DNA of 64,000 nt from Candidatus Gottesmanbacteria bacterium (GTDB lineage Bacteria; Patescibacteriota; Microgenomatia; UBA10105; UBA927): assembly GCA_963714095.1 (NCBI GenBank), contig OY970230.1:198206-262205 (forward strand), in the 5' to 3' direction. The position numbers and the translations under genes are program-made. Position 1 is the stretch's first letter; every line of letters starts with the position of its first letter. The notes beneath the pieces were generated by a model. It worked only from the letters and a program-made list of their open reading frames with translations. It did no database searches and had not been told where the DNA came from. This document shows positions 5,647 through 56,807 of the stretch, piece after piece.

Positions 5647-6729
5647 TCAGGTAAGATGCTCGTTTTGGGTACCCTTTAAACTTTCAACGAGTTTTTTAAT
5701 TTTCGGAACGGAGGATTTGTTGCAGACCAGAATCACATCGTTTGTTGCAACGATAAGGGCATCCTTCACGTCTATCGTCGTCACCAGCTGATCCGTGTAA
5801 TTATAGACCAATGAATCTTCCGTGTCCGTCAGGAGCACTTTTCCCTCCGTTACGTTTTTATCCGCAGCCTCCTCAAGCGCTTCTTTTAATGCTTCCCACG
5901 CCCCGATATCACTCCATCCGATATCCTCAGAAATAACATAGGCAGTAGACGGATTCAGATTTTCCAGAATCAGATTATCAAAACTGTTTTTTTCCAATGT
6001 AGGATAGACGCTGGCAAGCGTTTCCTCGAACCGATCTGTATGCCAGCTCTCGGAAATACGGGAAAGTCCCGCATATATATTCGGTGCAAACTGTTTATAT
6101 TGCGACCATAAAAATTGCGGCGTGGTGACAAAGTATCCTAGATTCCAAGCATGATGATCACTTTCAAAGTACCGTTTCGCTGTTTTTGCGTCAGGCCGGT
6201 ATTGACAGTCAACAAACGAATAAATTGGAATTTCGTTGGCGGTCATCATTCTTTTACCGTACTCAATCCACCCCAAATTTTCACTGGCAAACCGTGGTTT
6301 TTGCGCAACAAACACTATCCTGTTGGAATCTTTTTTTACAATTTCTCCTGCAGCAACAAGAATTTTCCGGAACAGTGCTTCCTTTTTTACCAAATGATCG
6401 CTCCACACAATGACCATAGGCTCCAGAGGAAAATCCCGGACAAGGAGTGACGTAATCAAACCAACCGCAGGCCCGACATCCCGCATCTCCGGCTCGCCTA
6501 TCACGTGATCAGGCGGCAATTCCCCTAATTGTTTTTGGACGATCGCAACATACGGCGCGCCCGTGGAAACATAGATGTCCTTCCATGAAAAGTCCGGCAG
6601 CAATCTGTTGGCTGCCAGCTGCAAGGTTGAGGAACTTCCTATAATTTTTTCAAACTGTTTCGGAGATTTTTTCCGGGAAAGCGGCCATAACCGCGTTCCC
6701 ACTCCTCCTGCAAAAATGACTGCTTTCAT
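5647..6729 (-). CDS. manC: Mannose-1-phosphate guanylyltransferase (GDP-mannose pyrophosphorylase)
   Basis: N-terminal MKAVIFAGGVGTRLWPLSRKKSPKQF nucleotidyltransferase motif. About 360 aa, lacking the isomerase domain. Confidence 0.75.
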   Translation of the reverse strand: MKAVIFAGGVGTRLWPLSRKKSPKQFEKIIGSSSTLQLAANRLLPDFSWKDIYVSTGAPYVAIVQKQLGELPPDHVIGEPEMRDVGPAVGLITSLLVRDFPLEPMVIVWSDHLVKKEALFRKILVAAGEIVKKDSNRIVFVAQKPRFASENLGWIEYGKRMMTANEIPIYSFVDCQYRPDAKTAKRYFESDHHAWNLGYFVTTPQFLWSQYKQFAPNIYAGLSRISESWHTDRFEETLASVYPTLEKNSFDNLILENLNPSTAYVISEDIGWSDIGAWEALKEALEEAADKNVTEGKVLLTDTEDSLVYNYTDQLVTTIDVKDALIVATNDVILVCNKSSVPKIKKLVESLKGTQNEHLT

Positions 6730-37765: not shown

Positions 37766-37773
37766 TAGAAAAC

Positions 37774-39983: not shown

Positions 39984-40020
39984 ACCTCGTATAATATATT
40001 TCTACCATGGTAGTCTGAAG

Positions 40021-42709: not shown

Positions 42710-42771
42710 ATAAACGGACCTGTGTTCATTTATTTCTTATTGCAAATGCTAGAATTATATACGTATCAATA

Positions 42772-43587: not shown

Positions 43588-43593
43588 ATCCCT

Positions 43594-44421
43594 TCATAAA
43601 GTTATCCTTCCAACTAAATAGCCAATCCCCAATACTCCCATTTCGCATGACTTCATAAACAACATACCTATTCCAACGAAAGGATTTGTAAATAATAGGC
43701 GAGGTTGAGAGAAAAATAAACCAAAACGGGAATGAATACTTCCCTGCCGCCGTCCATATTGTGCATTAGATTTCTTTTTCAGATATTGCGGCACTCGTTT
43801 ACCGTAATAATATTTCTTACTCAGAGTTTTAATAAGCGATAACCGTCCTTCATTATGGAAGATATATGAGGCAATTCGTCCGATAGAGTCTTTCCCGTAT
43901 CTTTCTTTTAGTCGCTGCGGCAAATCATAGTCTTCCGGTCCTGTAAGTTCTTCATCATAACCGCCGAGTTTAATAAATATATCCTTCCGGTAAAAACGTG
44001 CCGCTTCGATCCATTCAACACCTTCGTAAAAGGATCTCTCCAATGCCTTACAGTCTGACCAAAATCCGGCACCGACCGATCGCTCGGGAATAATAACGGC
44101 AGTGTATTTATTCGTTAGCACTGTTTTAACACACTCCAGAACAATATTGGGTGATAATATCATGTCGGCGTCTACGAAAAGAAGATAGTCTCCTTTTGCC
44201 TTTTTTGCACCAAAATTACGCTGGGCAGACCGTTCCGGCCCCCTATCATAGACCAAAGCATCCAGTTCTTCCGCTATATTTTTTGTCCCGTCTGAAGATG
44301 CATTATCTACAACTATCAATTCAATGAACTGATATGATTGTTTTTGTATACTGGAAAGGCATGCGCGAATATTAGCTTCCTCATTACGCGTTGTAACAAT
44401 GACAGATACGAGTGTTTTCAT
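43594..44421 (-). CDS. Glycosyltransferase family 2
   Basis: MKTLVSVIVTTRNEE...ELIVVDNASSDGT. Start set at the internal ATG, which is preceded by AAGGAAA. The longer ORF to 44670 looks like a spurious extension. Confidence 0.7.
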   Translation of the reverse strand: MKTLVSVIVTTRNEEANIRACLSSIQKQSYQFIELIVVDNASSDGTKNIAEELDALVYDRGPERSAQRNFGAKKAKGDYLLFVDADMILSPNIVLECVKTVLTNKYTAVIIPERSVGAGFWSDCKALERSFYEGVEWIEAARFYRKDIFIKLGGYDEELTGPEDYDLPQRLKERYGKDSIGRIASYIFHNEGRLSLIKTLSKKYYYGKRVPQYLKKKSNAQYGRRQGSIHSRFGLFFSQPRLLFTNPFVGIGMLFMKSCEMGVLGIGYLVGRITL

Positions 44422-45010: not shown

Positions 45011-46979
45011 CACGAATAGAAATATCTTTCCATTGACATGTGCCGAGATTCTGTTGAAATATCCGGATACCCTGAAGTTCCTCTCCTGCAAATTGTTCTA
45101 CTGCGCGTGAATCGGGATAGACATTTAGTTCACCGGCAAAATCCGCCGGTTGTTCAGAAAAACGATACCACGTAGTGCCGTCCGAGGAACCAAAAATATA
45201 CGCACTTGCGATAGGGTACGCACATTCGGGCTTAACAAAGTTAAACTCAATTCTTTTCACCCTGTTTTGCTTTTCCATACGCAATTCCAACAGATCAGAC
45301 GCCTTTTCCGTCACCTCAAACTTCTCATTTCTTTCATGGGTCATATCTACGCCGTGCGCAAGATGCAACGGGTCGTTTTTCCATATATACAGAAGCGGAA
45401 CACCATCAATCTGAACCGTATAAACCGGAGTGAGCATATTACGCAGAAAACGCATCCGGAAAAAATCATTGACGTTCAAACCCGGATATGTCAATTCCAT
45501 TACATATTCTCCTTGTTGCGCATAGAGGTCGGAATTCGTACCCACGAGGACTAAATCGTTCCGAAAATAGACCGTTGGAACCGCCGAAAAAATTGCGGTA
45601 CCGAGAGCTATCTTTGATCCGAGTTCGGCATGAGCATTAATCCAAAGAGCTCCCTGTTTATATGCATTTCCATACGTATTATTTGCGCCATCCAAACCAT
45701 ATTTCATGGCGCCGGGTAATCCTCCGATGAGTGCGTTATAATACACGTTTTCGTTCGGATGTAATTGAACCATTGTATAGATAATCGGTATATATCCCGA
45801 AATCGCAATCAGAATAATGATCTGCCGTATCGCCCGCCTTTTTTGCAATCGCATAACATGTTCAACTGCTACTCCACAAAGGAGTGATAAGGGGATCATA
45901 TACTCCATAATTTGACGCAGGCTGCCGCCATATAAATACTCGAGGGGAATTGTTGCCCGACCTACTGTAACAAAAATCCAAAGTAACCAAAGAAAAACCG
46001 CGCTGCTTTTACCGAAAGCATATTTCCAGCCAATAACACTCCCCGTCAAAAAAAACAGAAGCGTCGGAATTGGCATCGACGTGCATAACACTACTATGGT
46101 ATTCCAGTCTGAACAATGCACGAACCAGGGAATCGTACCAAAATAATATCCGCAGCTATTTGCGGCATTGGATACTCCCAAATAATACTGAATTACCTGG
46201 AATGTCTTCTGAATCGGCGATGACCACAATGCCGGATACGATATGAAAAACATCCCATATGCAATAATCGGAATAACGATACAGGAGGTAATAACTATCC
46301 GCCGGAGCGGTTTTTTCTCCCACCACCTCAGGGATATAAACCACGGAATGAGAATAAATACAGAAAATACTATATTGAACTTGGTCCCGAGGGATAATCC
46401 GAAAAAAATTGCCGAAACGAAAACCGGCCAATATTTTTTGTATTCAACGGCGAACCATAGAAAAAATAGCGCACCTGTATAATATGAAGCAACCAACGGA
46501 TCCTTAATATTAAAATGCTGTTCGGCAAACAACAGCGGCAACGTGATTAAGGAACACACCGAAAAAAAAGACGCTACAGGACCAAAAACCAGATATGACC
46601 AGCATCCGACTAGGACGACCATGAAGAGAGTCATAAGCAAAACATACACTTCATAGCTTTCAATATCTCCGACTAATCCAAATTTACCCCACAGAATTCT
46701 GTTTGTTGCCGCCATCAAAATGTCAGAAAGCGGCGGGTGACCAATAGTCATTTTCGTCGTCCATGCCCAATCTAACGGACTATTCTGGTAATAACTTAAC
46801 CTTTTGGATTTGAGATCAGGCTTGTCAGTTTTACCAGTTTCAAAAAATCGTAAATAGATATTTCCCCGGACCAAATGCTGATACGTGTCCCAATTTACAC
46901 CGTAATCGTAGATGGTTTTAAACGATAATACGGAAAAAACCGCGATAAGGAAGAGTGTCGGAAATATTCGCCATTTCAT
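44994..46979 (-). CDS. Polytopic membrane protein with a C-terminal extracytoplasmic domain, candidate GT-C-like
   Basis: GVNWDTYQHLVRGNIYL motif after TM1 and more than 12 TM segments. Start placed at the ATG that forms an ATGA overlap with the upstream stop. The longest ORF runs to 46997. Confidence 0.45.
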   Translation of the reverse strand: MKWRIFPTLFLIAVFSVLSFKTIYDYGVNWDTYQHLVRGNIYLRFFETGKTDKPDLKSKRLSYYQNSPLDWAWTTKMTIGHPPLSDILMAATNRILWGKFGLVGDIESYEVYVLLMTLFMVVLVGCWSYLVFGPVASFFSVCSLITLPLLFAEQHFNIKDPLVASYYTGALFFLWFAVEYKKYWPVFVSAIFFGLSLGTKFNIVFSVFILIPWFISLRWWEKKPLRRIVITSCIVIPIIAYGMFFISYPALWSSPIQKTFQVIQYYLGVSNAANSCGYYFGTIPWFVHCSDWNTIVVLCTSMPIPTLLFFLTGSVIGWKYAFGKSSAVFLWLLWIFVTVGRATIPLEYLYGGSLRQIMEYMIPLSLLCGVAVEHVMRLQKRRAIRQIIILIAISGYIPIIYTMVQLHPNENVYYNALIGGLPGAMKYGLDGANNTYGNAYKQGALWINAHAELGSKIALGTAIFSAVPTVYFRNDLVLVGTNSDLYAQQGEYVMELTYPGLNVNDFFRMRFLRNMLTPVYTVQIDGVPLLYIWKNDPLHLAHGVDMTHERNEKFEVTEKASDLLELRMEKQNRVKRIEFNFVKPECAYPIASAYIFGSSDGTTWYRFSEQPADFAGELNVYPDSRAVEQFAGEELQGIRIFQQNLGTCQWKDISIRVIGFP

Positions 46980-47680
46980 ATTTTTTGCATACAGCAATAA
47001 ATATTGGTAAACCCCCGTTCCTTTTGATATTCCTCGTCCAATTTTCGCTCAAAAAATCGGGCGAAAAATGGGGATCTGCGGAAAATCCATTTTGATATAT
47101 AAAGATTTAAAATCCAGGCTGTTTCCCACCATGCACCGGCACATTGGATTTTAACAATCTTCATGCCTGACCCCCGGACATACGCGATAATCGAACCTAC
47201 CGTATAATGCCTGTGGCCAGTTAACCAAAACGCCGGATCCAATAACGTGCTAATAATAAACCGGTGCGGCGTAGAAATATAACACGCACCACCCCGTTTC
47301 AGTACGCGGGAAATCTCCCGAAACATTATATATTCCGTTCCTTTTGGAATGTGCTCGAGAACTTCCCACGATACGACTGTATCAAACGAACGTTTTGGAA
47401 AAGGTATTACTGTGGCGCTGCCGACGATAAAATGAATTTTTTTGTCATAAATAGACCGCTTCGCCGTACGAAAATCTTCCTCAGTCAACTCAGTTCCCAC
47501 GATAGATCGGACGTTATTTTTTTTCGCAAATACCTCAAACCACCCATACCCGCAGCCGATATCGAGAACTTTTTTATATGTTATATCACCGATCCGTACA
47601 AAAGAAGCCGTAAAACGCAGACGTTCATGAAGCGGAGCATATGGCGATACCTTGGTGATATTTTTCATACAGGGCGACAA
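46976..47680 (-). CDS. Class I SAM-dependent methyltransferase
   Basis: VLDIGCGYGWF (motif I)...VVSWEVLEHIP. The start codon at 47680 is TTG. An in-frame ATG lies at 47668. Confidence 0.7.
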   Translation of the reverse strand: MSPCMKNITKVSPYAPLHERLRFTASFVRIGDITYKKVLDIGCGYGWFEVFAKKNNVRSIVGTELTEEDFRTAKRSIYDKKIHFIVGSATVIPFPKRSFDTVVSWEVLEHIPKGTEYIMFREISRVLKRGGACYISTPHRFIISTLLDPAFWLTGHRHYTVGSIIAYVRGSGMKIVKIQCAGAWWETAWILNLYISKWIFRRSPFFARFFERKLDEEYQKERGFTNIYCCMQKI

Positions 47681-47720
47681 ATAACTCCTTGCTTATACCT
47701 ATGATTCGCACAAAATACCC

Positions 47721-49031
47721 TTATCGCAGGTTTTGTAATCGGAAAAATGATTCCAATGTTTTTTCTATATATCCGATCATTTGAACTGTAATACCGGGCC
47801 AGACTCCTATCCAAAATCCGTAATTCATAACCGTGTCTGAATTTTTCATAGATCCGGAAATACGTATATCTTTTCTACCGATATAGGCGGGGTGACGAAG
47901 AAGGTTTCCGGCAAACAGATTTCGGGTCCCGATGTTATGTTCCTCCAAATACTTGACCAATTCCAGCCGTGTAAATGGCGCAGTATCTTTGACAACCAGC
48001 ATAAATCCGAACCAGCAGGGGTCAGAGACCGGATCCCACTCGGGCAAAATAAAATATTTCTCATATTTTTTGAAAAAATCATATAGAAGGGTGAAATTTC
48101 TCTTACGCTTTTTTATAAATACGGGAAGTTTTTTTAACTGGGCAACGCCGATAGCCGCCTGAAAATCAGTCAGCTTGAGATTGTAACCGATTTGAGAATA
48201 AATATATTTATGATCGTATCCTTTCGGCAGTTCCCCAAGCTGCCAGCCAAAACGCCGTTTGCATGTATTGTCCTTCCCCGTATCGCACCAGCAATCCCTC
48301 CCCCAATCACGGAACTGACGCAGAGCCTTATGAATCAGAGGATTATTCGTCACAATCGCCCCGCCTTCGCCCATGGTAATCTGATGTGCCGGATAAAAAG
48401 AAAAGGTCCCGATATGGCCAAACGTGCTTAACTTTTTGCCCTGATATGTCGATCCGAGCCCGTCGCAGCAATCCTCAATAAACCATAGATTATACTTCAC
48501 TACGAGCCGCATAATGCCCTCTATGGGCAAAGGATTCCCGAGGGTATGTGCAAGCATGATAACCCTTGTTTTCTTCGTTATAGCCTGTTCTATAGCCTCA
48601 CACGTAGGATTTCTTGTCCCCAAATCAACATCTACGAATACCGGCACGCATTTATTCTGAATAATAGGATTAACGGTCGTCGGAAAGGCACACGCTGCGG
48701 CGATGATTTCATCTCCCGGCTTGAGTGCTTTTTTGCCGAATACGGAAGACGTGAGGGCGGTCAATGCCAGCAAGTTGGCGGAAGATCCGGAATTTACCAG
48801 TGTTACGTATCGTATGCCGAGATACGAAGCAAAATTCTTTTCAAACTTTTTGGCAAACTCCCCCTCCGTCCACCACCCGTCCAGCACTGCTTCCGCACCA
48901 CTGAGCAATTCCTGTTGGTCAAACACTTTCCCGGAAACCGGTACTGAAGACTTTCCGGGTTTAAATGGACGGGTGGAATATTTCTGACGTGCGTATGAAC
49001 GAATTAGCCCTGCAATATTTGCTGGCATCAT
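47721..49031 (-). CDS. ddhC: CDP-6-deoxy-D-xylo-4-hexulose 3-dehydrase (E1, DdhC/RfbH-like), PMP-dependent with a [2Fe-2S] motif
   Basis: DegT-family fold. The active-site position has His (SFYPAHQITMGEGG) instead of Lys. A Cys cluster (DCWCDTGKDNTCKRRF) matches the E1 iron-sulfur motif. Confidence 0.75.
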   Translation of the reverse strand: MMPANIAGLIRSYARQKYSTRPFKPGKSSVPVSGKVFDQQELLSGAEAVLDGWWTEGEFAKKFEKNFASYLGIRYVTLVNSGSSANLLALTALTSSVFGKKALKPGDEIIAAACAFPTTVNPIIQNKCVPVFVDVDLGTRNPTCEAIEQAITKKTRVIMLAHTLGNPLPIEGIMRLVVKYNLWFIEDCCDGLGSTYQGKKLSTFGHIGTFSFYPAHQITMGEGGAIVTNNPLIHKALRQFRDWGRDCWCDTGKDNTCKRRFGWQLGELPKGYDHKYIYSQIGYNLKLTDFQAAIGVAQLKKLPVFIKKRKRNFTLLYDFFKKYEKYFILPEWDPVSDPCWFGFMLVVKDTAPFTRLELVKYLEEHNIGTRNLFAGNLLRHPAYIGRKDIRISGSMKNSDTVMNYGFWIGVWPGITVQMIGYIEKTLESFFRLQNLR

Positions 49032-49954
49032 ATATTTTTCTTCAAAATCGACTGAATTGTTTCTATAATTTGGTTGACAGTCAAACCGTTGGCCTCTCTC
49101 ATATATTCCTGCAAACCCATACCTTTCGTAAACCTATCGGGTACACCGATTCGCCTGAAAGGAATTGCATTACCGTGTTCCGCGAGTATTTCCGATACTG
49201 CGCTTCCTAATCCTCCGATTACACTGTGTTCCTCCAAAGTAAATATCGCTTTCGTGTATTTTGCGGAATCCAAAATCAATTGCTGATCTATGGGTTTTAT
49301 TGTATGCATACTGATCAACCGTCCCTGCATTCCCTGAATGGCAAGTTTCTCAACCACATCTATACCGCGTGCGACAAGCGTTGATGTTGCAATAAGACAA
49401 TAGTCCTTTCCTTTCCTCAGGATAATACCCTTACCAATTTTAAAATGCGGCGGCTTATCATACAAACGAGGTTCTCCGGCTTTCCCGATCCGCAGATAGA
49501 CGGGACCTTTGTGCATCAAGGCGGCCCGCGTCGCTAGCTCCGCCTCTATCGGATCTGCCGGGCAGACTATTGTCATGTTCGGGAGGGTTCGCATTATACC
49601 GATATCTTCCAGACTATGATGTGTATGTCCGTAGGGACCGTATGCGAATCCCGCCCCAACACCGACAATTTTAACATTCAAATTTTGATAGCAAATATCA
49701 TTCCTCACCTGTTCAAAATTCCGCATGGTAACAAACGGAATAATAGAATAGATAATAGGAATTTTTCCCTCAAGCGCCATACCCGCCGCGACCCCTGTCA
49801 TGTTCTGCTCGGCAATCCCCATATTAATATATTGCCGGGGCACCTCATGAATATACTTTTCAAAAACGGAATATCCCAAATCTCCTGTAAGCAGGATGAT
49901 CCGTCTATCTTGTTTTGCCAACTGAAGTATCGTTTTCGTAAATGCTATTCTCAT
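49028..49954 (-). CDS. Transketolase, C-terminal (pyrimidine-binding) subunit
   Basis: GIAEQNMTGVAAGMALEG is the transketolase Pyr-domain signature. ATGA overlap with ddhC. Confidence 0.8.
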   Translation of the reverse strand: MRIAFTKTILQLAKQDRRIILLTGDLGYSVFEKYIHEVPRQYINMGIAEQNMTGVAAGMALEGKIPIIYSIIPFVTMRNFEQVRNDICYQNLNVKIVGVGAGFAYGPYGHTHHSLEDIGIMRTLPNMTIVCPADPIEAELATRAALMHKGPVYLRIGKAGEPRLYDKPPHFKIGKGIILRKGKDYCLIATSTLVARGIDVVEKLAIQGMQGRLISMHTIKPIDQQLILDSAKYTKAIFTLEEHSVIGGLGSAVSEILAEHGNAIPFRRIGVPDRFTKGMGLQEYMREANGLTVNQIIETIQSILKKNI

Positions 49955-50784
49955 ACTGCTTCCAAATCCTTTAATGCTTTATCAAACTCCTTTTCCGTCG
50001 GAGCTTTATACTGGGACGAAACTGTGCCTATATACCTGGCTACACCCCCAAGACCTTTTATCGTATGAGCGATAATTACCGATGGCTTTCCGTTTCGGAA
50101 TGGAAGAGTTCTAAACGTTTGGATAACTTTCTTAATATTATGCCCGTCTACCTCCGCGACTTCCCAATCAAAACTTTGCCATTTTTCTTTCAACGGTTCC
50201 AGATCTAACACATCTTTGGTGAATCCGAAGCCCTGCAGCTTATTATAATCGACGATAGCAATAAGGTTATCCAGCTTATGATATCCGGCAAACAATATAG
50301 CTTCCCATGTAGAACCTTCATCACATTCACCGTCGGACAGTACAGCGAATACTCGATAAGCCTTTTTATCCTGTTTCCCTACCCACGCCATTCCTGCAGC
50401 CATGGGTAACCCGTGGCCCAGAGAACCGGACGAAATTTCAATACCCGCGATACCTCGTACCGAATGTCCCGGCAATAATCCGCCGTCATGCTCATAGCCT
50501 TTCAACAGTTTTTTATCAAAGAAGCCACGTTCTGCAAGTACGGCATACAGAGCTTTAGCGTCATGCGCTTTGCTGAATACCAGCCTGTCCCGACGTGGAT
50601 TCACCGGATCGCCGGGATATACCTTCATTATCCGAAAATACAACGCTACCAAAATTTCCACACACGATAGCGCGCCGCCCGTATGTGCACTCTGAGCCAG
50701 ATAGCTCATCGTCAGAATATCCCGACGGATATCTCTTGCAATAGTTTCTAACGTTTTTCTTTTACTACGGGTAATTGTTCTCAT
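49951..50784 (-). CDS. Transketolase, N-terminal (ThDP-binding) subunit
   Basis: SAHTGGALSCVEIL...GSLGHGL...SDGECDEG is the ThDP/PP-domain motif. First ATG is used. The track ORF starts at TTG (50796). Confidence 0.8.
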   Translation of the reverse strand: MRTITRSKRKTLETIARDIRRDILTMSYLAQSAHTGGALSCVEILVALYFRIMKVYPGDPVNPRRDRLVFSKAHDAKALYAVLAERGFFDKKLLKGYEHDGGLLPGHSVRGIAGIEISSGSLGHGLPMAAGMAWVGKQDKKAYRVFAVLSDGECDEGSTWEAILFAGYHKLDNLIAIVDYNKLQGFGFTKDVLDLEPLKEKWQSFDWEVAEVDGHNIKKVIQTFRTLPFRNGKPSVIIAHTIKGLGGVARYIGTVSSQYKAPTEKEFDKALKDLEAV

Positions 50785-50921
50785 CTTCAGTATCAATATA
50801 ATAATTATTTATCGTTTTACGCATGATCAACCTCACTATACTTTTTTAAACCCTGCATTCGTTTCAGAAACATTTTCCTCTTCGTTCTATCAGGGGATGC
50901 ACGCTTCTCTGCTTTTCTTCG

Positions 50922-52034
50922 TTACCGATATCGAATAAGTTTTGTGAGCTTCTCACAAATGAATGCAACGTCCGATTCTGTTATATCGGCGGCAGACGGC
51001 AGGTTGAATCCATATTTCTCTACTTTTGCGGCTTCAGGATTAGGGAATCGGCGCTCGTACATGGGAAATCCGCTCATCCGGGGAAACGCGACCCTTCCAT
51101 GAATATTCCATCGTTCCAATTTACTTACCAAATCCTTATTGGATATTTTTTTTGAAGTGAGTAAAGCGGAGGGATATGCGTAATTACTGCGGCATCCGGG
51201 CCTTTCTTTAATGAGTTTTAATTCATGTACATCTTTCAGCCGTGAGTAATACCAGCCGAATATTCTCCGTTTTTTTGCAACGAGTTCTTCTATGCGCTCG
51301 ACCTGAGCAAGCGCCAGGGCTGCTGTCACATTTGCCATTTGATATTCATATCCCAGTGAATCACACCAAAAATTGAATTTCCTATTCGTTCTGCCCATGT
51401 TACTGAAAAGAATAGCTTTATCAAGGTATGCCTTATTATTTGTAATAAACATCCCGCCTTCACCAGAAACGGCGATTTTTGCCCCATGAAATGAATAGGC
51501 GCCGACGTCACCGAACGTGCCCACTTTCTTTCCTTTATATAAGGAGCCGAGCGAAGGAGCCGCATCTTCAATAACTTTAAGTTTATACTTTCCGGCAATT
51601 CGCATTATTTCATCCATTTCCGCCGGATGCCCGAAGGTATGAACGAGCATAATACCTTTCGTCTTTTTTGTAATTGCGCGTTCTACGGCTTTGGGATCAA
51701 TACACCATGTATCAGGATCAATATCAACAAATACAGGAGTTGCACCCGTATATGCGATCACGTGAGCGGTTGCGGCCCAACTGGTATCCACACATATTAC
51801 CTCGTCACCTTTTTGAAAACCGCAGACCAAACATGCAAGATGGAGTGAATGTGTTGCACAAAAACCGGCTAAAGAATACTTCGCACCGGTATAGTCACAC
51901 ATACGTTTTTCTAGTTTCTTTATATGCTTGTCAAATGTTGAGTACCACCCTGTCTTAACAGCATCGACAACATAATCAACTTCTTTTTGAGTCATCGATG
52001 GACCTGCAAAACTAATCCTTTTATATTTTTTCAT
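50922..52034 (-). CDS. DegT/DnrJ/EryC1-family PLP-dependent sugar aminotransferase
   Basis: Catalytic Lys is retained (YSFHGAKIAVSGEGG). Confidence 0.75.
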   Translation of the reverse strand: MKKYKRISFAGPSMTQKEVDYVVDAVKTGWYSTFDKHIKKLEKRMCDYTGAKYSLAGFCATHSLHLACLVCGFQKGDEVICVDTSWAATAHVIAYTGATPVFVDIDPDTWCIDPKAVERAITKKTKGIMLVHTFGHPAEMDEIMRIAGKYKLKVIEDAAPSLGSLYKGKKVGTFGDVGAYSFHGAKIAVSGEGGMFITNNKAYLDKAILFSNMGRTNRKFNFWCDSLGYEYQMANVTAALALAQVERIEELVAKKRRIFGWYYSRLKDVHELKLIKERPGCRSNYAYPSALLTSKKISNKDLVSKLERWNIHGRVAFPRMSGFPMYERRFPNPEAAKVEKYGFNLPSAADITESDVAFICEKLTKLIRYR

Positions 52035-52719
52035 ACGGTAATTTCATAACTACACTATATCGTTTTATTGTTCCTTTATAACCTTTGGGTGCATTTTGCC
52101 ATTCAATTCTATCAGATTTAACAATCCTGATCATGGGCGTCCGTTTCACTTCAGTAAAATCAAGCTTTCGGTAAAGGCGAATGGCTCTTATATTATCAGA
52201 CGTTGTAGACAGCATATACGTTTTAATTCCAAATTCAACCCTGCCCCAACATATCATATGACGTATCGCATCTTCTATAATTCCGGGGTATAAATTCACA
52301 CCACGCACAATATTATCTATTTCGCAGATACGTTTTTGAAAATTAAAACGATACAAGCCGATATGACCGATGTACCGGTTTTTTACTTTTATCATAAATA
52401 AAATCCTGTCGGGTTCATTCACAACTTTATCGCGCAACCATTTTTCGGTTCCTTCCAAGGTAACCGGGAATATTGCAGGAAACCATTGCTCATGCTTTTT
52501 TCTCCATAACGCGAGTAGTTTAATAATTTTTTTATCAGTTCTCTGGTTGTCCGTAACGAGAACTAAATAATAACGAATTTTTCTAAAAATTATTTTAATT
52601 TGTAATTTTTTTCCGTGTTTAAGCAATGAAATTTTGTCTTTCACCAAACTGCTGATATCTCGCTCCGTTAATTTCATAATCAACCTAATGCTCTGTCTTT
52701 TATTCTTTCGATATATCAA
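52021..52719 (-). CDS. GNAT-family N-acetyltransferase (putative amino-sugar N-acetyltransferase)
   Basis: C-terminal GNAT-like block (IGHIGLYRF...YMLSTTSDNIRAIRLYRKLDF). Weak. Confidence 0.45.
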   Translation of the reverse strand: MIYRKNKRQSIRLIMKLTERDISSLVKDKISLLKHGKKLQIKIIFRKIRYYLVLVTDNQRTDKKIIKLLALWRKKHEQWFPAIFPVTLEGTEKWLRDKVVNEPDRILFMIKVKNRYIGHIGLYRFNFQKRICEIDNIVRGVNLYPGIIEDAIRHMICWGRVEFGIKTYMLSTTSDNIRAIRLYRKLDFTEVKRTPMIRIVKSDRIEWQNAPKGYKGTIKRYSVVMKLPYEKI

Positions 52720-52723
52720 CTAA

Positions 52724-53686
52724 TTATTTCAAGATAGAATTATACCAGCGGCGGATTAAAGGAAGTGTGTTTTTAATCGAATATGTAGGTCTCCATCCCA
52801 GATTGATAATCTTCCCTGCATTCAAATGCTGGTACGGAATTTCGTTCTTCGCCGAGTTTTCTATAACATACGGTATTTTTCTTTTTAGTATCCTTTCTGT
52901 TTGCCTGATGAGAGCTATCACTGAACACGAGTCGCTGGAGGATAAATTAAATGCCTCCCCATTAGTTTTATCTCTATGTTCAAGAAGGAACAAATAGCCG
53001 GATACTACATCTTCAACGTAAATATAGTCCCGGACATATGAACCGTCACTTCGAATAACCAATTTTTCTTTCGTGACAACTGCTTTCATTATTCCCGGAA
53101 TAATCCGTGAAAAATTCAGATCACCTTCTCCGTAAATATTTCCTGCCCGTGTAACGACGATAGGCAAATGGTATGTTTTTGCGTATGCGTGTGCGAGAAG
53201 ATCCGTTGCCGATTTAGAAACCTCATATGGATGGTCGCCTCTCAAAGGATCCGTCTCGATATAGGGTTTCCTGCTTTTTCCGTAGCTTTTATCAGACGAT
53301 GCAACAATGACTCCTTTCACATGAGTAAAAAGTCGTGCCGCATCGAGAATATAGGTGGTACCCATGATATTAGTTTCAATTGTTTCCACGGGATTTTCGT
53401 AGGCAGTAGGCACTATTGCCTGAGCGGCTAAGTGGAAAATATAGTCAATTTCATATTTTGACACGATATCAAAAACCCGATCTTTATCTTTAAGGTCACA
53501 TGAAACAAGAACGGTATTTTTTGATAACCGTTCGGTCATGAAATATGAACGGGGGTCTAATGATCGAAACGGCACAAATACCGTTGCATGCCTCCCTAGT
53601 AAGGCTTTCACAAGATGACTTCCAACAAACCCCGTTCCGCCTGTGACCAGAATGTTCTTTCCTGTTAATCTTTCCATATTTTCCAT
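52724..53686 (-). CDS. ddhB: CDP-glucose 4,6-dehydratase-like (DdhB/RfbG-like) extended SDR
   Basis: LTGKNILVTGGTGFVGSHL...YENPVETIETNIMGTTYILDAAR, compared with the RfbG pattern EPVETYSTNVMGT. Confidence 0.7.
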   Translation of the reverse strand: MENMERLTGKNILVTGGTGFVGSHLVKALLGRHATVFVPFRSLDPRSYFMTERLSKNTVLVSCDLKDKDRVFDIVSKYEIDYIFHLAAQAIVPTAYENPVETIETNIMGTTYILDAARLFTHVKGVIVASSDKSYGKSRKPYIETDPLRGDHPYEVSKSATDLLAHAYAKTYHLPIVVTRAGNIYGEGDLNFSRIIPGIMKAVVTKEKLVIRSDGSYVRDYIYVEDVVSGYLFLLEHRDKTNGEAFNLSSSDSCSVIALIRQTERILKRKIPYVIENSAKNEIPYQHLNAGKIINLGWRPTYSIKNTLPLIRRWYNSILK

Positions 53687-54441
53687 TCAGGATTCCGTTT
53701 CCATAATGTATTAAGACGTTCCAAATCCGCATATGTATCCATCGATTGCCAAAAACCTTTATGGACAAAAAGAGATAGCTCCCGGTCTTTAACAAGCCTT
53801 TTTAGTGCCTCATGTTCATATTCAGCCGGCCGCAGATAATTAAAAAACTTTTTATCAAATACCATAAATCCGCCGTTTACCCAATCCTGTAAAACAGGTT
53901 TTTCGACAAACTCCGTTACCCTGTGTTTAACATTTTGCCGGACCATTCCGTATTTACTTTTCGGATACACGCCAGTTATGGTACCGATTGTTTTTTGTTT
54001 TCTGTGAAACTGAACTAATTGCCGGATATTGATATTAGACACACCGTCCCCGTACGTAACCATAAAATCTTTATCAGTTTTCGGGATATAATCTTTTACA
54101 CGTATTATTCTTTCACCCGGAAGTGTCCCCTCTCCCGTATCTACAAAGGTAATTTTGAAATTATCGGCGGCAGATGGGTTTTTATGAAAAATCGCTGAGC
54201 CGGATTTTGTGGATAACGTAAAATTTTGTGAAAAATATTTTTGATTTAAAAAATACTCCTTAATCATATCCCCCTTATACCCGAGGGCAATGATAAAATC
54301 ATTAAACCCGTAGTACGCATACATTTTCATGATATGCCACAGGATTGGTTTATTGCCGACCAACACCATGGGTTTTGGTTTAAACTCTGTTTCCTCCTTT
54401 AATCTGTATCCTATACCGCCACATAAAATAATCGTCTTCAT
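53665..54441 (-). CDS. ddhA: Glucose-1-phosphate cytidylyltransferase
   Basis: MKTIILCGGIGYRLKEETEFKPKPMVLVGNKPILWHIMKMYAYYGFNDFIIALGYKG closely follows the RfbF/DdhA pattern (257-aa class). Confidence 0.85.
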   Translation of the reverse strand: MKTIILCGGIGYRLKEETEFKPKPMVLVGNKPILWHIMKMYAYYGFNDFIIALGYKGDMIKEYFLNQKYFSQNFTLSTKSGSAIFHKNPSAADNFKITFVDTGEGTLPGERIIRVKDYIPKTDKDFMVTYGDGVSNINIRQLVQFHRKQKTIGTITGVYPKSKYGMVRQNVKHRVTEFVEKPVLQDWVNGGFMVFDKKFFNYLRPAEYEHEALKRLVKDRELSLFVHKGFWQSMDTYADLERLNTLWKRNPEWKIWKD

Positions 54442-54453
54442 ATTTAGTGGCCT

Positions 54454-54482
54454 ATTATAACATTTATTGTCTTTTCGAAAAG
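54454..54482 (-). promoter_or_regulatory. Candidate internal promoter upstream of ddhA, with a perfect 12-bp palindrome
   Basis: The minus strand reads cttttcgaaaag (perfect palindrome, 54471..54482), then 16 nt, then TATAAT (54459..54454), 12 nt before the ddhA ATG. Confidence 0.2.
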
Positions 54483-54498
54483 TTTTACCGGGGCAGTT

Positions 54499-55608
54499 TT
54501 AGATGTGTATTGCTTTATTTAATAAATGGAGACTTTGTTTAACGGCATCTGTCCAACGCAGGTTGGCTACCCACTTTCTGGCGTTTATTTGATATTCTTT
54601 ATAGTGTAATTTGTCTCTATATAATTTCACCGCCTCCCGTGCCATTTCTCGGGGCGAGCAGCTTTCGATAACCATCCCTGTTTTTCCATGAATGACAACG
54701 TCCCTCAATCCGGGAACGTTATAAACAATTGCAGGTGTGCCTACGGACGCAGCCTCAAGAACAACAAGTCCCCACCCCTCTTTCACAGATGCGTGAAGAA
54801 GAAGGTGTGCCCGTGCCATACGGTTATATTTTTCTTTTTCAGAAACGTTTCCAAAAAAGATTACCCGTTCTTTTATACCGTATTCCGTTATCATTCTTTT
54901 CAATTCATCGATATACTCAGGCTCACCGCCTCCGATAATCCATAACACTGCATCCGTCTGTTCACGCACAATAAACGAAAACGCTTTAATAACCTCCTCG
55001 ATACCCTTCATACGGACGACACGGGATACAAACAGGTATGTAGGATGTATTTCTTTATTTTTCGAGGTTATATGAAACCGGCCGTGTACGGTAATCGGAC
55101 AGGGAATATTTACGCATTGTGATCGGGGAATACCGCGGGATACCAGTTCATCAATCGTCGACGGCGCATCCGTCCAAAAATAACAGTGACGATACAATCG
55201 GAAACACCATCGTTCCAGAAATTTTCCGATGACGTTTTTGGGAAACGAAAACATATAATCCCATATTTCTCCTGCTATCTCATGAATAAAAACGACGACC
55301 GGTTTCCCAGTGAAGAGCGTAGAAAAAAAAGGAAATCCGTGCACCTCGTCGACAATGATATCAAAAGCATTCCTGTGAGTAAGCAAGTAAAATGGGACGT
55401 ACAGATATATTGTGAGTGAGCCCGCCCGCCGGATAAAACGGACACTCTGAACCGTTTCTTCTTTTTTAGCACCGGAATATGCGGCAGTGAGCCATGTCAC
55501 ATCATTCCCCGCTGCCACCCACCCCTTTGCATGCTCAAAGGTCACTACTTCGGCCCCTCCGGATTTCGGATGACGAACATCACGCCAATTAAGTATTAAT
55601 ATGCGCAT
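54499..55608 (-). CDS. Glycosyltransferase family 4
   Basis: HASVKEGWGLVVLEAASVGTPAIV is the C-domain motif. Confidence 0.75.
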   Translation of the reverse strand: MRILILNWRDVRHPKSGGAEVVTFEHAKGWVAAGNDVTWLTAAYSGAKKEETVQSVRFIRRAGSLTIYLYVPFYLLTHRNAFDIIVDEVHGFPFFSTLFTGKPVVVFIHEIAGEIWDYMFSFPKNVIGKFLERWCFRLYRHCYFWTDAPSTIDELVSRGIPRSQCVNIPCPITVHGRFHITSKNKEIHPTYLFVSRVVRMKGIEEVIKAFSFIVREQTDAVLWIIGGGEPEYIDELKRMITEYGIKERVIFFGNVSEKEKYNRMARAHLLLHASVKEGWGLVVLEAASVGTPAIVYNVPGLRDVVIHGKTGMVIESCSPREMAREAVKLYRDKLHYKEYQINARKWVANLRWTDAVKQSLHLLNKAIHI

Positions 55609-55616
55609 AATTCTTC

Positions 55617-56807
55617 CTATTTATGTCCGGCAGTAAATACCTTTATGATTGTTTGGATTTCTCCAGTCGTCAGTTCCGGATTATTGCCAAAATATAATCC
55701 TTGTTCATGTATGAGCTTCACGTTGACGCATTCGCGGAAATTACCCTTCACGTATTTGGTAAAAAACGGTTGTTCTGTCATATCGCCGCCGACAACCGGC
55801 CTGATTTCAATCCTGTTACCGCAGGCCTTTACTAACGAATCCCGGATTGCGGTTGATTTGCATATAACGGGCACGGCAAAATTTGAAATTGTATCCATGT
55901 GATCATATCGTATAGGATAGTAATCCGGCGACTGATAAATTCTTCCGGCAATTTTTTTAAAATTATTCTGCCGTTTCTTAATTATTTCAGGGAGAAATTT
56001 AATTTGAATTTGTCCTAGATACCCGGTAATTTCCGTCGGACGGAAATTATACCCTAAATCATAGAACGTATACCGCCCATAAAACGACGGGTTTGCAAGA
56101 AATTTTCTCCGGGCCGTCTGTTCCGGAACTGACAGATTTCTATCCCAACCGTGAGCCCGCACCATGATGAGCATACTCGCGAGATCACTGTTATCTGTAC
56201 AAACCGCACCTCCTTCGACTGTTGACATGTGGTGTCCAACGTAAAACGAAAATGTACCTGCCTCTCCGAAATTACCGAGTTTTTTGGCATGATAAACAGA
56301 TCCCAGAGATTCACAGTTGTCTTCTACGAACAGCATGCCGCGTTTATTGCAGAGATCCATAACTTTATCAATATCGTCACATAATCCGAGAAGGTTTGTA
56401 AGGAGAAGTGCTTTTAGTTTATACCTAGCTAATGTGTTTAACAGGGTTCTACTGGATACATTCAGGGTGTCTAGTTCCACGTCAACTGGTACCGGCTTCA
56501 GACCCAACTGAATAAGCGGCATAACGTTGGTAGACCATGTGACGGCGGAAAATCCGACCATGTCTCCTTTGTGAATTTTACCTAGATTAAGAAGGGCCTG
56601 AATAAGCGCTAAATTTGCGGAACTGCCGCTGTTGAGCAATACACAGTATTTTTTCCCCTGCCAGAAAGCAAATTGTTTCTCAAATGCTTCGCACTCCTTA
56701 CCGAAACTTAACTGTTTGGCGACCAATAAAAATTGGATCAGCTTCCGTTTTGTTTCGTTTTCTTTATAAAATGTCGATTTTATAAGTGTAATCATGTTAA
56801 TGAACAA
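55617..56807 (-). CDS. DegT-family sugar 3-dehydratase-like enzyme (ColD/E1-type active-site His, no Fe-S motif)
   Basis: The NSGSSANLALI block is paralogous to ddhC. The active-site position is His (FSFYVGHHMSTVEGG). The Cys cluster is absent. Confidence 0.65.
   Translation of the reverse strand: MFINMITLIKSTFYKENETKRKLIQFLLVAKQLSFGKECEAFEKQFAFWQGKKYCVLLNSGSSANLALIQALLNLGKIHKGDMVGFSAVTWSTNVMPLIQLGLKPVPVDVELDTLNVSSRTLLNTLARYKLKALLLTNLLGLCDDIDKVMDLCNKRGMLFVEDNCESLGSVYHAKKLGNFGEAGTFSFYVGHHMSTVEGGAVCTDNSDLASMLIMVRAHGWDRNLSVPEQTARRKFLANPSFYGRYTFYDLGYNFRPTEITGYLGQIQIKFLPEIIKKRQNNFKKIAGRIYQSPDYYPIRYDHMDTISNFAVPVICKSTAIRDSLVKACGNRIEIRPVVGGDMTEQPFFTKYVKGNFRECVNVKLIHEQGLYFGNNPELTTGEIQTIIKVFTAGHK

What the first reader, a model, noticed from the sequence alone, without database searches (positions are those of the whole stretch)
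47721..56807. Three DegT-fold paralogs with different active-site chemistry: two His-type dehydratases and one Lys-type transaminase
The PLP-lysine position reads directly from the sequence. It is AHQ in 47721..49031 and GHH in 55617..56807, which are dehydratase-type like E1 and ColD. It is AKI in 50922..52034, a genuine aminotransferase. Only the first has the Cys cluster. Two 3-deoxygenating enzymes in one locus suggest either two different deoxysugars, for example a CDP-linked and a GDP-linked (colitose-like) one, or sequential deoxygenation.
Basis: seen in the sequence. Interest (0 to 1): 0.55.

Follow-up and report, generated by a model that had tools for sequence, protein, structure and literature searches.

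The report
Two sugar 3-dehydratases plus one aminotransferase
A cell-surface sugar gene cluster of a tiny uncultured (CPR/Patescibacteria) bacterium encodes an E1-type and a ColD-type sugar 3-dehydratase plus a normal sugar aminotransferase; they most likely make two different 3,6-dideoxy sugars, a combination already known from Yersinia.

Summary
All three ORFs are DegT-fold proteins.

- **47721-49031** is a true E1/RfbH. It has His216 at the E1 His220 position and all four [2Fe-2S] cysteines.
- **55617-56807** (real start about 56795) has His188 at exactly the ColD His188 position and lacks the Cys triad.
- **50922-52034** has Lys186 at the Schiff-base lysine position.

The three are old family members (26-32% identical), not recent duplicates.

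Comparative context assigns them to two pathways. The ColD-like protein belongs to a family found across the Candidate Phyla Radiation (CPR). Its conserved neighbours are GDP-mannose 4,6-dehydratase (gmd) and a GDP-fucose-synthase/ColC-like reductase, and in two genomes it is fused to that reductase. This points to a GDP-colitose-type route. Neither partner lies in this 64 kb window.

E1 and the aminotransferase belong to a separate conserved CDP module: cytidylyltransferase, 4,6-dehydratase, E1, a thiamine enzyme (here a split transketolase), a GNAT acetyltransferase and the aminotransferase. This probably makes a branched, aminated 3,6-dideoxy sugar.

"Sequential deoxygenation" is rejected, because both enzymes remove the same 3-OH. 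Yersinia pseudotuberculosis O:6 (colitose plus yersiniose) is a direct precedent. The finding is a new member of a known kind, of moderate interest.

The parts
47721..49031 (-). P1: E1/RfbH-type CDP-4-keto-6-deoxyglucose 3-dehydratase (436 aa), PMP- and [2Fe-2S]-dependent
   Evidence: NCBIfam RfbH NF011936 scores 650 bits against a cutoff of 423. Best PDB match is 3bcx (E1), E 1.6e-155, 54% identity over the full length.
48384..48386 (-). Codon of His216 of P1, equivalent to E1 His220
   Evidence: Alignment with 3bcx (wild type) and 3bb8 (H220K). Codon checked.
48261..48467 (-). Codons of Cys189, Cys247, Cys249 and Cys257 of P1, the [2Fe-2S] motif C-X57-C-X-C-X7-C
   Evidence: They align with E1 C193/C251/C253/C261. 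The motif is absent from P2 and P3.
49028..49954 (-). Transketolase C-terminal half (pyrimidine-binding and C domain). Its stop overlaps the P1 start by 4 nt
   Evidence: Pfam PF02779 and PF02780. An orthologous module in L097 has the same split transketolase.
49951..50796 (-). Transketolase N-terminal half (ThDP-binding). It overlaps the C-terminal half by 4 nt
   Evidence: Pfam PF00456. In L095, L099, L045, L052 and L071 a YerE/AHAS-type ThDP enzyme takes its place.
50922..52034 (-). P2: Lys-type NDP-sugar aminotransferase (370-aa ORF; called gene 357 aa starting at 51995)
   Evidence: Pfam PF01041, E 2e-98. Best PDB matches are 7b0m and GDP-perosamine synthase, E 1e-67 to 1e-69. Lys186 codon is 51477-51479. 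Many close homologues (65-76% identical to P2) are GNAT::aminotransferase fusions.
52021..52719 (-). GNAT N-acyltransferase, functional partner of P2
   Evidence: Pfam PF13302 and PF00583. It is adjacent to, or fused with, P2 orthologues.
52724..53686 (-). SDR, NDP-hexose 4,6-dehydratase-like (best match is CDP-glucose 4,6-dehydratase, below the curated cutoff)
   Evidence: NCBIfam TIGR02622 scores 189 bits against a cutoff of 278; dTDP-glucose dehydratase scores 169 bits. Orthologues 53-58% identical occur in the same module in L097 and L099.
53665..54441 (-). Glucose-1-phosphate cytidylyltransferase-like (RfbF-like)
   Evidence: NCBIfam TIGR02623 scores 273 bits against a cutoff of 300; the next family scores only 81 bits.
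54499..55608 (-). GT4 glycosyltransferase, 8 nt downstream of P3
   Evidence: Pfam PF00534 and PF13439.
55617..56807 (-). P3: ColD-type, Fe-S-free, His-type NDP-4-keto-6-deoxyhexose 3-dehydratase (392 aa from the ATG at 56795)
   Evidence: Best PDB match is ColD 2gms, E 4.7e-61; E1 gives 7.6e-47. A family HMM scores ColD at 299 bits and E1 at 213 bits, and a neighbour-joining tree places ColD as sister to the family. Foldseek ranks ColD chains 1-12, TM 0.79-0.82. The motifs SGSSANL, EDNCES and RAHGWDRN are shared with ColD.
56232..56234 (-). Codon of His188 of P3, equivalent to ColD His188
   Evidence: The HH dyad is invariant in 73 of 73 orthologues.
46976..47680 (-). SAM-dependent methyltransferase 40 nt downstream of P1; possible tailoring step
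   Evidence: Pfam PF08241 and PF13649. Its role is inferred from position only.
5647..6729 (-). Mannose-1-phosphate guanylyltransferase-like (ManC). It is the only GDP-mannose-pathway gene seen in the window
   Evidence: NCBIfam TIGR01479 scores 213 bits, below its cutoff of 373. Pfam NTP_transferase and ManC beta-helix domains.

Best explanation
The locus joins two independent nucleotide-sugar routes that each need a C-3 deoxygenation, and the third DegT protein works downstream in one of them.

Route A (CDP, 46976-54441):
1. Glucose-1-phosphate is converted to CDP-glucose by the RfbF-like enzyme.
2. The 4,6-dehydratase-like SDR makes CDP-4-keto-6-deoxyglucose.
3. P1 (E1: PMP, His216, [2Fe-2S]), with an unidentified electron donor, makes CDP-4-keto-3,6-dideoxyglucose.
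4. The split transketolase, translationally coupled to P1, most likely adds a two-carbon ketol branch to the C-4 carbonyl.
5. P2 (Lys186) transaminates a remaining keto group.
6. The GNAT N-acylates the new amine.

Route B (GDP): P3 is a ColD-type enzyme. It is Fe-S-free, uses His188, and regenerates PMP from L-glutamate. It converts GDP-4-keto-6-deoxymannose to GDP-4-keto-3,6-dideoxymannose on the way to a colitose-like sugar.

What is shown: the catalytic residues, family membership and conserved gene neighbourhoods.

What is inferred: the nucleotide specificity of P3 in this genome, every step after E1 in route A, and the reductant for E1.
For: Catalytic positions are pinned by PDB variant pairs.

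P1:
- It passes the curated RfbH cutoff and has all four cluster cysteines.

P3 family (one search returned 80 loci, of which 73 carry a callable P3 orthologue; they span Microgenomates, Parcubacteria, Peregrinibacteria, SR1 and others):
- gmd lies within 10 kb in 46 of 73 loci. It scores 525 bits against TIGR01472, above the cutoff of 415. Across all 80 loci, 37 gmd copies lie directly adjacent (within 400 bp) on the same strand.
- An Fcl/ColC-like SDR lies within 10 kb in 44 of 73 loci. Either partner is present in 59 of 73.
- In-frame ColD-like::Fcl-like fusions occur in L052 and L071.
- Window P3 keeps 85 of the 86 columns that are at least 95% conserved in gmd-linked orthologues.

P2:
- Its orthologue loci L095, L097 and L099 each also carry E1 (64-65% identical) and a ThDP enzyme, and each has a GNAT, either separate or fused to the aminotransferase.
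- L097 and L099 also carry RfbF (61-68%) and the 4,6-dehydratase-like SDR (53-58%).
- GNAT::aminotransferase fusions are common among close homologues.

Precedent:
- The Y. pseudotuberculosis O:6 cluster carries ddhDABC plus yer genes and also gmd-colA-colB (PMC5399914).
- Split transketolases have been proposed to branch keto sugars (PMC12247030).
Against: - No gmd and no Fcl/ColC-like gene occurs anywhere in the 64 kb window or in 4.4 kb beyond it.
- In this window P3 sits only one gene upstream of the CDP-glucose genes.
- In the closest P3 clade (at least 58% identity) only 2 of 20 loci have gmd within 10 kb.
- P3 is only 35% identical to E. coli ColD. Characterised ColD-type enzymes are 62-67% identical to each other.
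- No E3-type reductase for E1 is present in the window.
- The RfbF-like and 4,6-dehydratase-like proteins score below the NCBIfam cutoffs.
- No biochemical data exist for any of these proteins.
Confidence: 0.62

Rival explanations
1. P3 acts on the CDP sugar made next door. As a ColD-type enzyme that needs no reductase, it would deoxygenate CDP-4-keto-6-deoxyglucose. It would then either back up E1 or compensate for the missing E3 partner, so that both His-type enzymes feed one CDP pathway.
For: - In the window P3 is separated from the RfbF-like and SDR genes only by a GT4 gene.
- No gmd, ColC-like or E3 gene lies in 64 kb.
- RfbF-like genes occur within 10 kb of P3 orthologues in 8 of 80 loci.
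Against: - Orthologue synteny and fusions tie the family to gmd and Fcl-like enzymes, that is, to GDP sugars.
- Window P3 retains 85 of 86 family-conserved positions, so there is no sign of a specificity switch.
- The CDP module occurs complete with its own E1 and without a P3 orthologue within the 10-kb flanks in L097 and L099.
Confidence: 0.15
2. Both dehydratases supply 4-keto-3,6-dideoxy sugars (one CDP-linked, one GDP-linked) to the same split transketolase. The locus would then make two branched octoses, and P3 would need no ColC-type reductase.
For: - In L076 and L033 the cassette is gmd, P3 orthologue, TK-N, TK-C and an SDR, with no Fcl-like gene.
- The window lacks an Fcl-like gene.
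Against: - Only 2 of 73 P3 loci show this arrangement.
- In the window the transketolase is translationally coupled to E1, not to P3.
- A transketolase using acceptors with two different nucleotides is unprecedented.
Confidence: 0.1
3. P3 is a stranded or decaying gene copy, left without its gmd and ColC partners after a rearrangement, and has no role in this genome.
For: Relatives L015, L019 and L024 have the GT2(56824)-like and GT4(54499)-like genes directly adjacent, with P3 elsewhere next to the Fcl-like gene. P3 therefore appears relocated in the window.
Against: - The ORF is intact and 62-67% identical to relatives.
- All catalytic and family-conserved residues are kept.
- It sits in an operon-like array with 8-28 nt gaps.
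- The same P3-GT4 arrangement without partners recurs in Levybacteria (L002) and in L095.
Confidence: 0.05

Closest known systems
E1 (AscC/DdhC/RfbH), CDP-6-deoxy-L-threo-D-glycero-4-hexulose 3-dehydrase of Yersinia pseudotuberculosis (PDB 3bcx)
   Same: P1 is 54% identical over the full length. It has His at the H220 position, the four [2Fe-2S] cysteines, and the PMP-binding motifs SGSSANL and EDCCD. It sits next to cytidylyltransferase and 4,6-dehydratase genes.
   Different: The tripeptide is 'AHQ' rather than 'AHH', and this holds in all four CPR E1 sequences seen. No E3 (DdhD/AscD) reductase gene is nearby. The downstream partner is a split transketolase plus an aminotransferase and GNAT, not a 4-reductase or epimerase.
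ColD (WbdK/ColA), GDP-4-keto-6-deoxy-D-mannose 3-dehydratase of E. coli O55 (PDB 2gms)
   Same: P3 has His188 at the same residue number, no Fe-S triad, and the ColD-type motifs EDNCES and RAHGW-RN. ColD is its best sequence and fold match. Orthologues are flanked by gmd and an Fcl/ColC-like reductase.
   Different: Identity is only 35%, so this is a separate clade, sister to ColD. In this genome's 64 kb window it lacks gmd and ColC neighbours and sits beside CDP-sugar genes.
Yersinia pseudotuberculosis O:6 O-antigen gene cluster (colitose plus yersiniose A)
   Same: One surface-glycan locus carries both an E1 (ddhC) and a ColD (colA), together with a ThDP-dependent branching enzyme that acts on the E1 product.
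   Different: Yersinia uses the YerE (AHAS-type) enzyme and the YerF reductase. Here a split transketolase is followed by an aminotransferase and GNAT. The host is a CPR bacterium without LPS.
GDP-perosamine synthase (Per) / PglE / LegC-type sugar 4-aminotransferases
   Same: P2 has the Schiff-base lysine (K186, the same number as in Per) and a full-length DegT fold. PDB matches have E values of 1e-50 to 1e-69.
   Different: It scores below every NCBIfam equivalog cutoff. It is genetically tied to a GNAT, a ThDP enzyme and E1, so its substrate is probably a CDP-linked, possibly branched, keto sugar.
Split-gene transketolases proposed for miharamycin/amipurimycin sugar branching
   Same: Separate N- and C-terminal transketolase halves are encoded inside a sugar pathway next to a keto-sugar-forming step.
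   Different: Those belong to secondary-metabolite clusters. This one lies in a cell-envelope glycan locus. No biochemical evidence exists in either case.

Membership tests
E1 / RfbH (CDP-sugar 3-dehydrase) | Matches the curated family model above its cutoff | tested here: met
   NF011936 scores 650.5 bits against a cutoff of 423. PDB 3bcx gives E 1.6e-155.
E1 / RfbH (CDP-sugar 3-dehydrase) | His replaces the PLP-binding Lys (E1 His220) | tested here: met
   His216 aligns with H220. The column is identified by the 3bcx/3bb8 (H220K) pair.
E1 / RfbH (CDP-sugar 3-dehydrase) | [2Fe-2S] motif C-X57-C-X1-C-X7-C | tested here: met
   Cys189, 247, 249 and 257 align with C193, C251, C253 and C261.
E1 / RfbH (CDP-sugar 3-dehydrase) | Genes that supply CDP-4-keto-6-deoxyglucose lie nearby | tested here: met
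   RfbF-like at 53665-54441 and a 4,6-dehydratase-like SDR at 52724-53686. Each has the CDP family as its best hit, although both fall below the curated cutoffs.
E1 / RfbH (CDP-sugar 3-dehydrase) | Dedicated E3 (DdhD/AscD) NADH-dependent Fe-S flavoprotein reductase partner | tested here: inconclusive
   None was found in the 64 kb window. Only about 6% of the genome is visible, and SpnQ shows that general ferredoxin or flavodoxin systems can substitute (PMC8987622).
ColD (GDP-4-keto-6-deoxymannose 3-dehydratase) | His replaces the Lys (ColD His188) | tested here: met
   His188 aligns with ColD H188. The column is identified by the H188K and H188N variants. It is invariant in 73 of 73 orthologues.
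ColD (GDP-4-keto-6-deoxymannose 3-dehydratase) | No iron-sulfur cluster motif | tested here: met
   The region aligned to the E1 'RDCxCxxxxxxxC' segment reads 'RAHGWDRNLSVPEQTA', as in ColD.
ColD (GDP-4-keto-6-deoxymannose 3-dehydratase) | Closest sequence and fold relative is ColD rather than E1 or the aminotransferases | tested here: met
   phmmer gives 210 bits for ColD and 163 for E1. The family HMM gives 299 and 213 bits, and the neighbour-joining tree places ColD as sister. Foldseek ranks 1-12 are ColD chains.
ColD (GDP-4-keto-6-deoxymannose 3-dehydratase) | Sequence identity in the range seen among characterised ColD-type enzymes (62-67%, PMC10440746) | tested here: not met
   Identity to E. 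coli ColD is 35%. P3 is therefore filed as ColD-type (it works like ColD), not as a member of the narrow ColD orthologue group.
ColD (GDP-4-keto-6-deoxymannose 3-dehydratase) | Genetic linkage to gmd and a ColC/Fcl-type reductase | tested here: inconclusive
   Met for the family: 59 of 73 loci, plus two fusions. Not met in this window. The rest of the genome could not be reached.
ColD (GDP-4-keto-6-deoxymannose 3-dehydratase) | Uses a GDP-linked substrate and regenerates PMP with L-glutamate | not testable with these tools
   This needs an enzyme assay. The structural papers that list the GDP-contact residues are not held. The active-site loop of the AlphaFold model has low confidence.
DegT-type NDP-sugar aminotransferases | Schiff-base lysine and a full-length fold-type I DegT domain | tested here: met
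   P2 Lys186 aligns with the Lys of Per, KdnA and PglE. It is the column that differs (K to A) between 1o61 and 4ztc. PF01041 scores 330 bits.
DegT-type NDP-sugar aminotransferases | Defined substrate and position of amination | not testable with these tools
   P2 falls below all NCBIfam equivalog cutoffs; the best is LegC family at 303 bits against a cutoff of 420. Context points to a product downstream of E1 and the ThDP enzyme.

The most novel reading that the evidence does not exclude
The CDP module (cytidylyltransferase, 4,6-dehydratase, E1, split transketolase, GNAT, aminotransferase) builds a previously undescribed sugar for the CPR cell envelope. The sugar would be a 3,6-dideoxy octose that is C-4-branched and then aminated and N-acylated. 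A transketolase-type enzyme, rather than a YerE-type ThDP enzyme, would do the branching. The two ThDP enzyme classes replace each other in orthologous modules. In parallel, a ColD-type, colitose-like pathway is a widespread CPR trait that has gone unremarked.
Probability: 0.35. Interest if true: 0.6.

Novelty: new member of a known kind. Interest (0 to 1): 0.36.

Why it matters
- The three enzymes are recognisable members of well-studied classes, and the E1-plus-ColD combination has a Yersinia precedent. The finding itself is therefore a solid annotation and not a surprise.
- The comparison did expose two things worth following up. First, a ColD-type gmd/ColD/Fcl-like cassette is conserved across many CPR lineages with roughly 1 Mb genomes. 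This suggests that 3,6-dideoxyhexoses are common in their poorly known cell envelopes.
- Second, there is a conserved E1 / ThDP-enzyme / GNAT / aminotransferase module in which a split transketolase and a YerE-type enzyme are interchangeable. This gives a directly testable candidate for transketolase-catalysed sugar branching, for which no biochemical or structural evidence yet exists.

Tried and rejected
- **Sequential deoxygenation by P1 and P3 on one sugar.** Rejected. Both enzyme types expel the 3-OH of a 4-keto-6-deoxyhexose (mechanism reviewed in PMC8987622), so nothing is left for the second enzyme.
- **Recent local duplication ("paralogs").** Rejected. The pairwise identities are 26-32%.
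- **Looking for gmd of the same genome.** I searched the protein database with a related CPR Gmd and looked for a hit on a 1,088,247-bp contig. None was among the top 120 hits, and Gmd is too conserved for this to mean anything. Inconclusive.
- **Reaching the rest of the genome.**
  - Exact-sequence look-up of the P3 ORF failed because the called gene starts at Met5.
  - The look-up of P0001 returned only a 2.6-kb contig.
  - Walking off the right end of the window gave 4.4 kb more, with no gmd or fcl.
- **Checking GDP-contact residues.** The ColD and E1 structure papers are not held. The AlphaFold model of P3 (pLDDT 82.6) has a low-confidence active-site loop at residues 186-193. Nucleotide specificity could therefore not be tested structurally.
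- **Searching the window for an E3-type reductase, gmd or fcl.** Pfam, NCBIfam and tblastn found none.
- **Literature.** A search for colitose in Patescibacteria found nothing relevant.

Full report
**Observation**

The window region 46.9-57.6 kb is a tight, same-strand (minus) gene array. Three of its ORFs match Pfam PF01041 (DegT/DnrJ/EryC1/StrS) over their full length. I call them P1 (47721-49031), P2 (50922-52034) and P3 (55617-56807).

I fixed the catalytic column with pairs of PDB entries that differ only at that residue.

- **E1.** Wild-type 3bcx reads 'SFYPAHHITMGEGG' and the H220K variant 3bb8 reads 'SFYPAKHITMGEGG'. P1 reads 'SFYPAHQITMGEGG', so P1 His216 corresponds to E1 His220.
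- **ColD.** 2gms reads 'FYSHHIATMEGG', H188K (2r0t) reads 'FYSKH...' and H188N (3b8x) reads 'FYSNH...'. P3 reads 'FYVGHHMSTVEGG', so the first His corresponds to ColD His188.
- **P3 numbering.** The database gene call for P3 (P0001, 392 aa) starts at the ATG at 56795. With that numbering the residue is literally His188.
- **P2.** It reads 'FHGAKIAVSGEGG'. Its Lys186 aligns with the lysine of GDP-perosamine synthase, KdnA and PglE. It is the column that differs (K to A) between 1o61 and 4ztc.

P1 also has Cys189, 247, 249 and 257, which align with E1 C193, C251, C253 and C261. This is the C-X57-C-X-C-X7-C [2Fe-2S] motif. P3 and ColD keep only the single Cys of 'EDNCES' and read 'RAHGW(D/T)RN' where E1 has 'RDWGRDCxC'. 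P2 has none of these.

**What each protein is**

- **P1.** It passes the curated NCBIfam RfbH model (650 bits, cutoff 423) and is 54% identical to Yersinia E1 over 428 residues.
- **P3.** Its best matches are ColD (E 4.7e-61) and then E1 (7.6e-47). Identity is only 35% to ColD and 32% to E1.
- **P3 versus ColD and E1.** A profile built from 73 orthologues scores ColD at 299 bits and E1 at 213 bits. A neighbour-joining tree places E. coli ColD as sister to a monophyletic family containing P3, with P1 and E1 pairing separately. An AlphaFold model (pLDDT 82.6) has ColD chains as Foldseek ranks 1-12 (TM about 0.8), followed by E1.
- **P2.** Its best matches are Lys-type sugar 4-aminotransferases: 7b0m, GDP-perosamine synthase, PglE and ArnB. 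It falls below every NCBIfam equivalog cutoff.
- **All three.** They are 26-32% identical to each other. They are ancient family members, not local duplicates.

**Source and context**

Homologues are labelled Patescibacteria/CPR (Microgenomates, Levybacteria and others), and the gene lies on a 1.09-Mb contig.

Almost the whole window from about 5 to 64 kb is a glycan-synthesis region. It includes a priming sugar transferase, a ManC-like gene, many GT2 and GT4 genes, GT-C/PMT_2-like membrane proteins and a flippase.

The genes around the three DegT proteins run in this order on the minus strand:

1. GT2
2. P3
3. GT4
4. RfbF-like cytidylyltransferase
5. 4,6-dehydratase-like SDR
6. GNAT
7. P2
8. 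TK-N
9. TK-C
10. P1
11. Methyltransferase

There are 4-nt overlaps at TK-N/TK-C and at TK-C/P1. No gmd, Fcl/ColC-like reductase or E3-type reductase is present in the window.

**What P3 does, judged from its relatives**

A scan of one genome per species returned 80 loci with P3 orthologues at 47-67% identity. They come from Microgenomates, Parcubacteria, Peregrinibacteria/Peribacteria, SR1, Berkelbacteria and others. I clustered the neighbouring ORFs. The findings below use the 73 loci with a callable orthologue unless stated.

- **gmd.** A family identified as GDP-mannose 4,6-dehydratase (TIGR01472, 525 bits, cutoff 415) lies within 10 kb in 46 of 73 loci. Across all 80 loci, 37 gmd copies lie directly adjacent on the same strand.
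- **Fcl/ColC-like SDR.** An SDR whose best family is GDP-L-fucose synthase (205-445 bits, below the 500 cutoff, as expected for ColC-like enzymes) lies within 10 kb in 44 of 73 loci.
- **Either or both.** 59 of 73 loci have at least one partner and 31 have both.
- **Fusions.** In L052 and L071 the P3 orthologue is fused in frame to this Fcl-like SDR, giving a 705-aa protein.
- **Invariant residues.** The HH dyad, EDNCES, SGS-ANL and RAHGWDRN motifs are invariant or nearly so across the family.
- **Window P3.** It keeps 85 of the 86 columns that are at least 95% conserved among gmd-linked orthologues.

The family is therefore best read as ColD-type: a GDP-4-keto-6-deoxymannose 3-dehydratase in a colitose-like route.

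Two cautions apply. In the closest clade (at least 58% identity) gmd is within 10 kb in only 2 of 20 loci, although the Fcl-like gene is present in 13. In this window both are missing.

Relatives L015, L019 and L024 have the GT2(56824)-like and GT4(54499)-like genes directly adjacent, with P3 elsewhere beside the Fcl-like gene. P3 therefore seems to have been relocated here. A P3-GT4 pair without partners also occurs in Levybacteria (L002) and in L095.

**What P1 and P2 do, judged from P2's relatives**

Many close P2 homologues (65-76% identical to P2) are GNAT::aminotransferase fusions of about 585 aa. Three P2-orthologue loci were examined.

| Locus | E1 (identity to P1) | GNAT / aminotransferase | ThDP enzyme | RfbF / 4,6-dehydratase-like SDR | Other |
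|---|---|---|---|---|---|
| L097 | 64% | separate GNAT and P2 | split TK-C, TK-N | 61% / 53% | |
| L099 | 65% | separate GNAT and P2 | YerE/AHAS-type | 68% / 58% | GT2; DmpF/DmpG-like pair |
| L095 | 64% | GNAT::AT fusion | YerE-type | not identified | methyltransferase; P3 orthologue (68%) 5 kb away |

All three E1 orthologues carry 'AHQ' and the Cys motif. YerE-type enzymes also accompany the RfbF and SDR genes in L045, L052 and L071, and a TK-N does so in L024.

P1 and P2 therefore belong to one conserved module: cytidylyltransferase, 4,6-dehydratase, E1, a ThDP enzyme, GNAT and the aminotransferase. Within it a split transketolase and a YerE-type enzyme replace each other.

YerE-type enzymes add an acyl branch to the C-4 carbonyl of the E1 product in yersiniose and erwiniose synthesis. 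Split transketolases have been proposed, but not shown, to do the analogous hydroxyacetyl transfer (PMC12247030). The most economical reading has three steps:

1. E1 makes CDP-4-keto-3,6-dideoxyglucose.
2. The transketolase branches it.
3. P2 and the GNAT aminate and acylate the product.

Everything after E1 is inference from gene context. In L076 and L033 a split transketolase sits next to gmd and the P3 orthologue instead.

**Comparison with what is known**

E1, ColD and SpnQ are the three characterised nucleotide-sugar 3-dehydratases. All replace the Lys by His. E1 and SpnQ carry [2Fe-2S] and need a reductase, whereas ColD hydrolyses the intermediate and regenerates PMP from glutamate (PMC8987622).

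Characterised ColD-type enzymes, including the C. jejuni GDP-heptose 3-dehydratases, are 62-67% identical to one another (PMC10440746). P3, at 35%, lies outside that tight group. I file it as ColD-type (it works like ColD) and not as an orthologue in the narrow sense.

A single locus with both an E1 and a ColD is not new. The Y. pseudotuberculosis O:6 cluster has ddhDABC plus yer genes (yersiniose A) and gmd-colA-colB-manB-manC (colitose) (PMC5399914).

**Verdict**

- The finding is a new member of a known kind (E1 plus ColD-type plus a sugar aminotransferase in one glycan locus), here in a CPR bacterium.

Three points remain unresolved:
- whether this genome has gmd and a ColC-like reductase elsewhere;
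- what reduces E1;
- what the transketolase, P2 and GNAT steps really make.

Interest is moderate. It comes mainly from the CPR-wide ColD-type cassette and from the TK/YerE-interchangeable branched-sugar module. Neither appears in the searchable literature.

Noticed in passing
window 49028-50796; L097 11116-12860; L095 16830-18635; L099 7556-9343: A split transketolase is translationally coupled to E1. In orthologous modules of other CPR genomes a YerE/AHAS-type ThDP enzyme takes the same place. In L099 that enzyme lies next to a DmpF/DmpG-like aldolase pair, which could make a 4-hydroxy-2-oxoacid donor. This suggests non-orthologous replacement of the sugar-branching enzyme.
   Followed up: partly
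P0248, P0250, P0253, P0255-P0257, P0264, P0266-P0268 etc.; L095 10001-11752: Many close homologues of P2 (65-76% identical to it) are single GNAT::aminotransferase fusion proteins of about 585 aa. This ties window genes 52021-52719 and 50922-52034 together functionally.
   Followed up: partly
L052 9980-12094; L071 5119-7218: The P3 orthologue is fused in frame to a GDP-fucose-synthase/ColC-like SDR (about 705 aa), with gmd immediately upstream. This would be a natural ColD::ColC fusion.
   Followed up: partly
L014-L093: The gmd / ColD-type / Fcl-like cassette occurs in many CPR lineages with roughly 1-Mb genomes. It also occurs in bins labelled Woesearchaeota (L051) and Limisphaerales (L032), which may reflect gene transfer or mis-binning. 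No paper in the library links Patescibacteria with colitose.
   Followed up: partly
L076 8939-13998; L033 5266-11161: In two genomes the split transketolase plus an SDR sits with gmd and the ColD-type gene in place of the Fcl-like reductase. Branching may therefore also occur on the GDP-linked 4-keto-3,6-dideoxy sugar.
   Followed up: no
window 37774-38823: An SDR of 349 aa has no confident family assignment; its best hit is dTDP-glucose 4,6-dehydratase at 115 bits against a cutoff of 365. It is conserved at 61-66% identity in 7 P3 loci and lies directly downstream of P3 in L015. It is a candidate 4-keto reductase or dehydratase partner.
   Followed up: no
window 7786-8271 / 8261-8782, and 17765-18325: GT4 glycosyltransferase halves are encoded as separate, overlapping ORFs (an N-terminal Glyco_transf_4 part and a C-terminal Glycos_transf_1 part). 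They could be split genes, frameshifts or assembly errors.
   Followed up: no
window 32000-44000: G+C falls to 0.36-0.40, against 0.41-0.49 in the rest of the window. This stretch of glycosyltransferase and GT-C genes may have a different origin.
   Followed up: no
window 47721-49031; L095, L097 and L099 E1 orthologues: All four CPR E1 sequences read 'AHQ' after the catalytic His, where Yersinia E1 reads 'AHH'. The second His is not conserved in this lineage. By contrast, the HH dyad is invariant in the ColD-type family.
   Followed up: no
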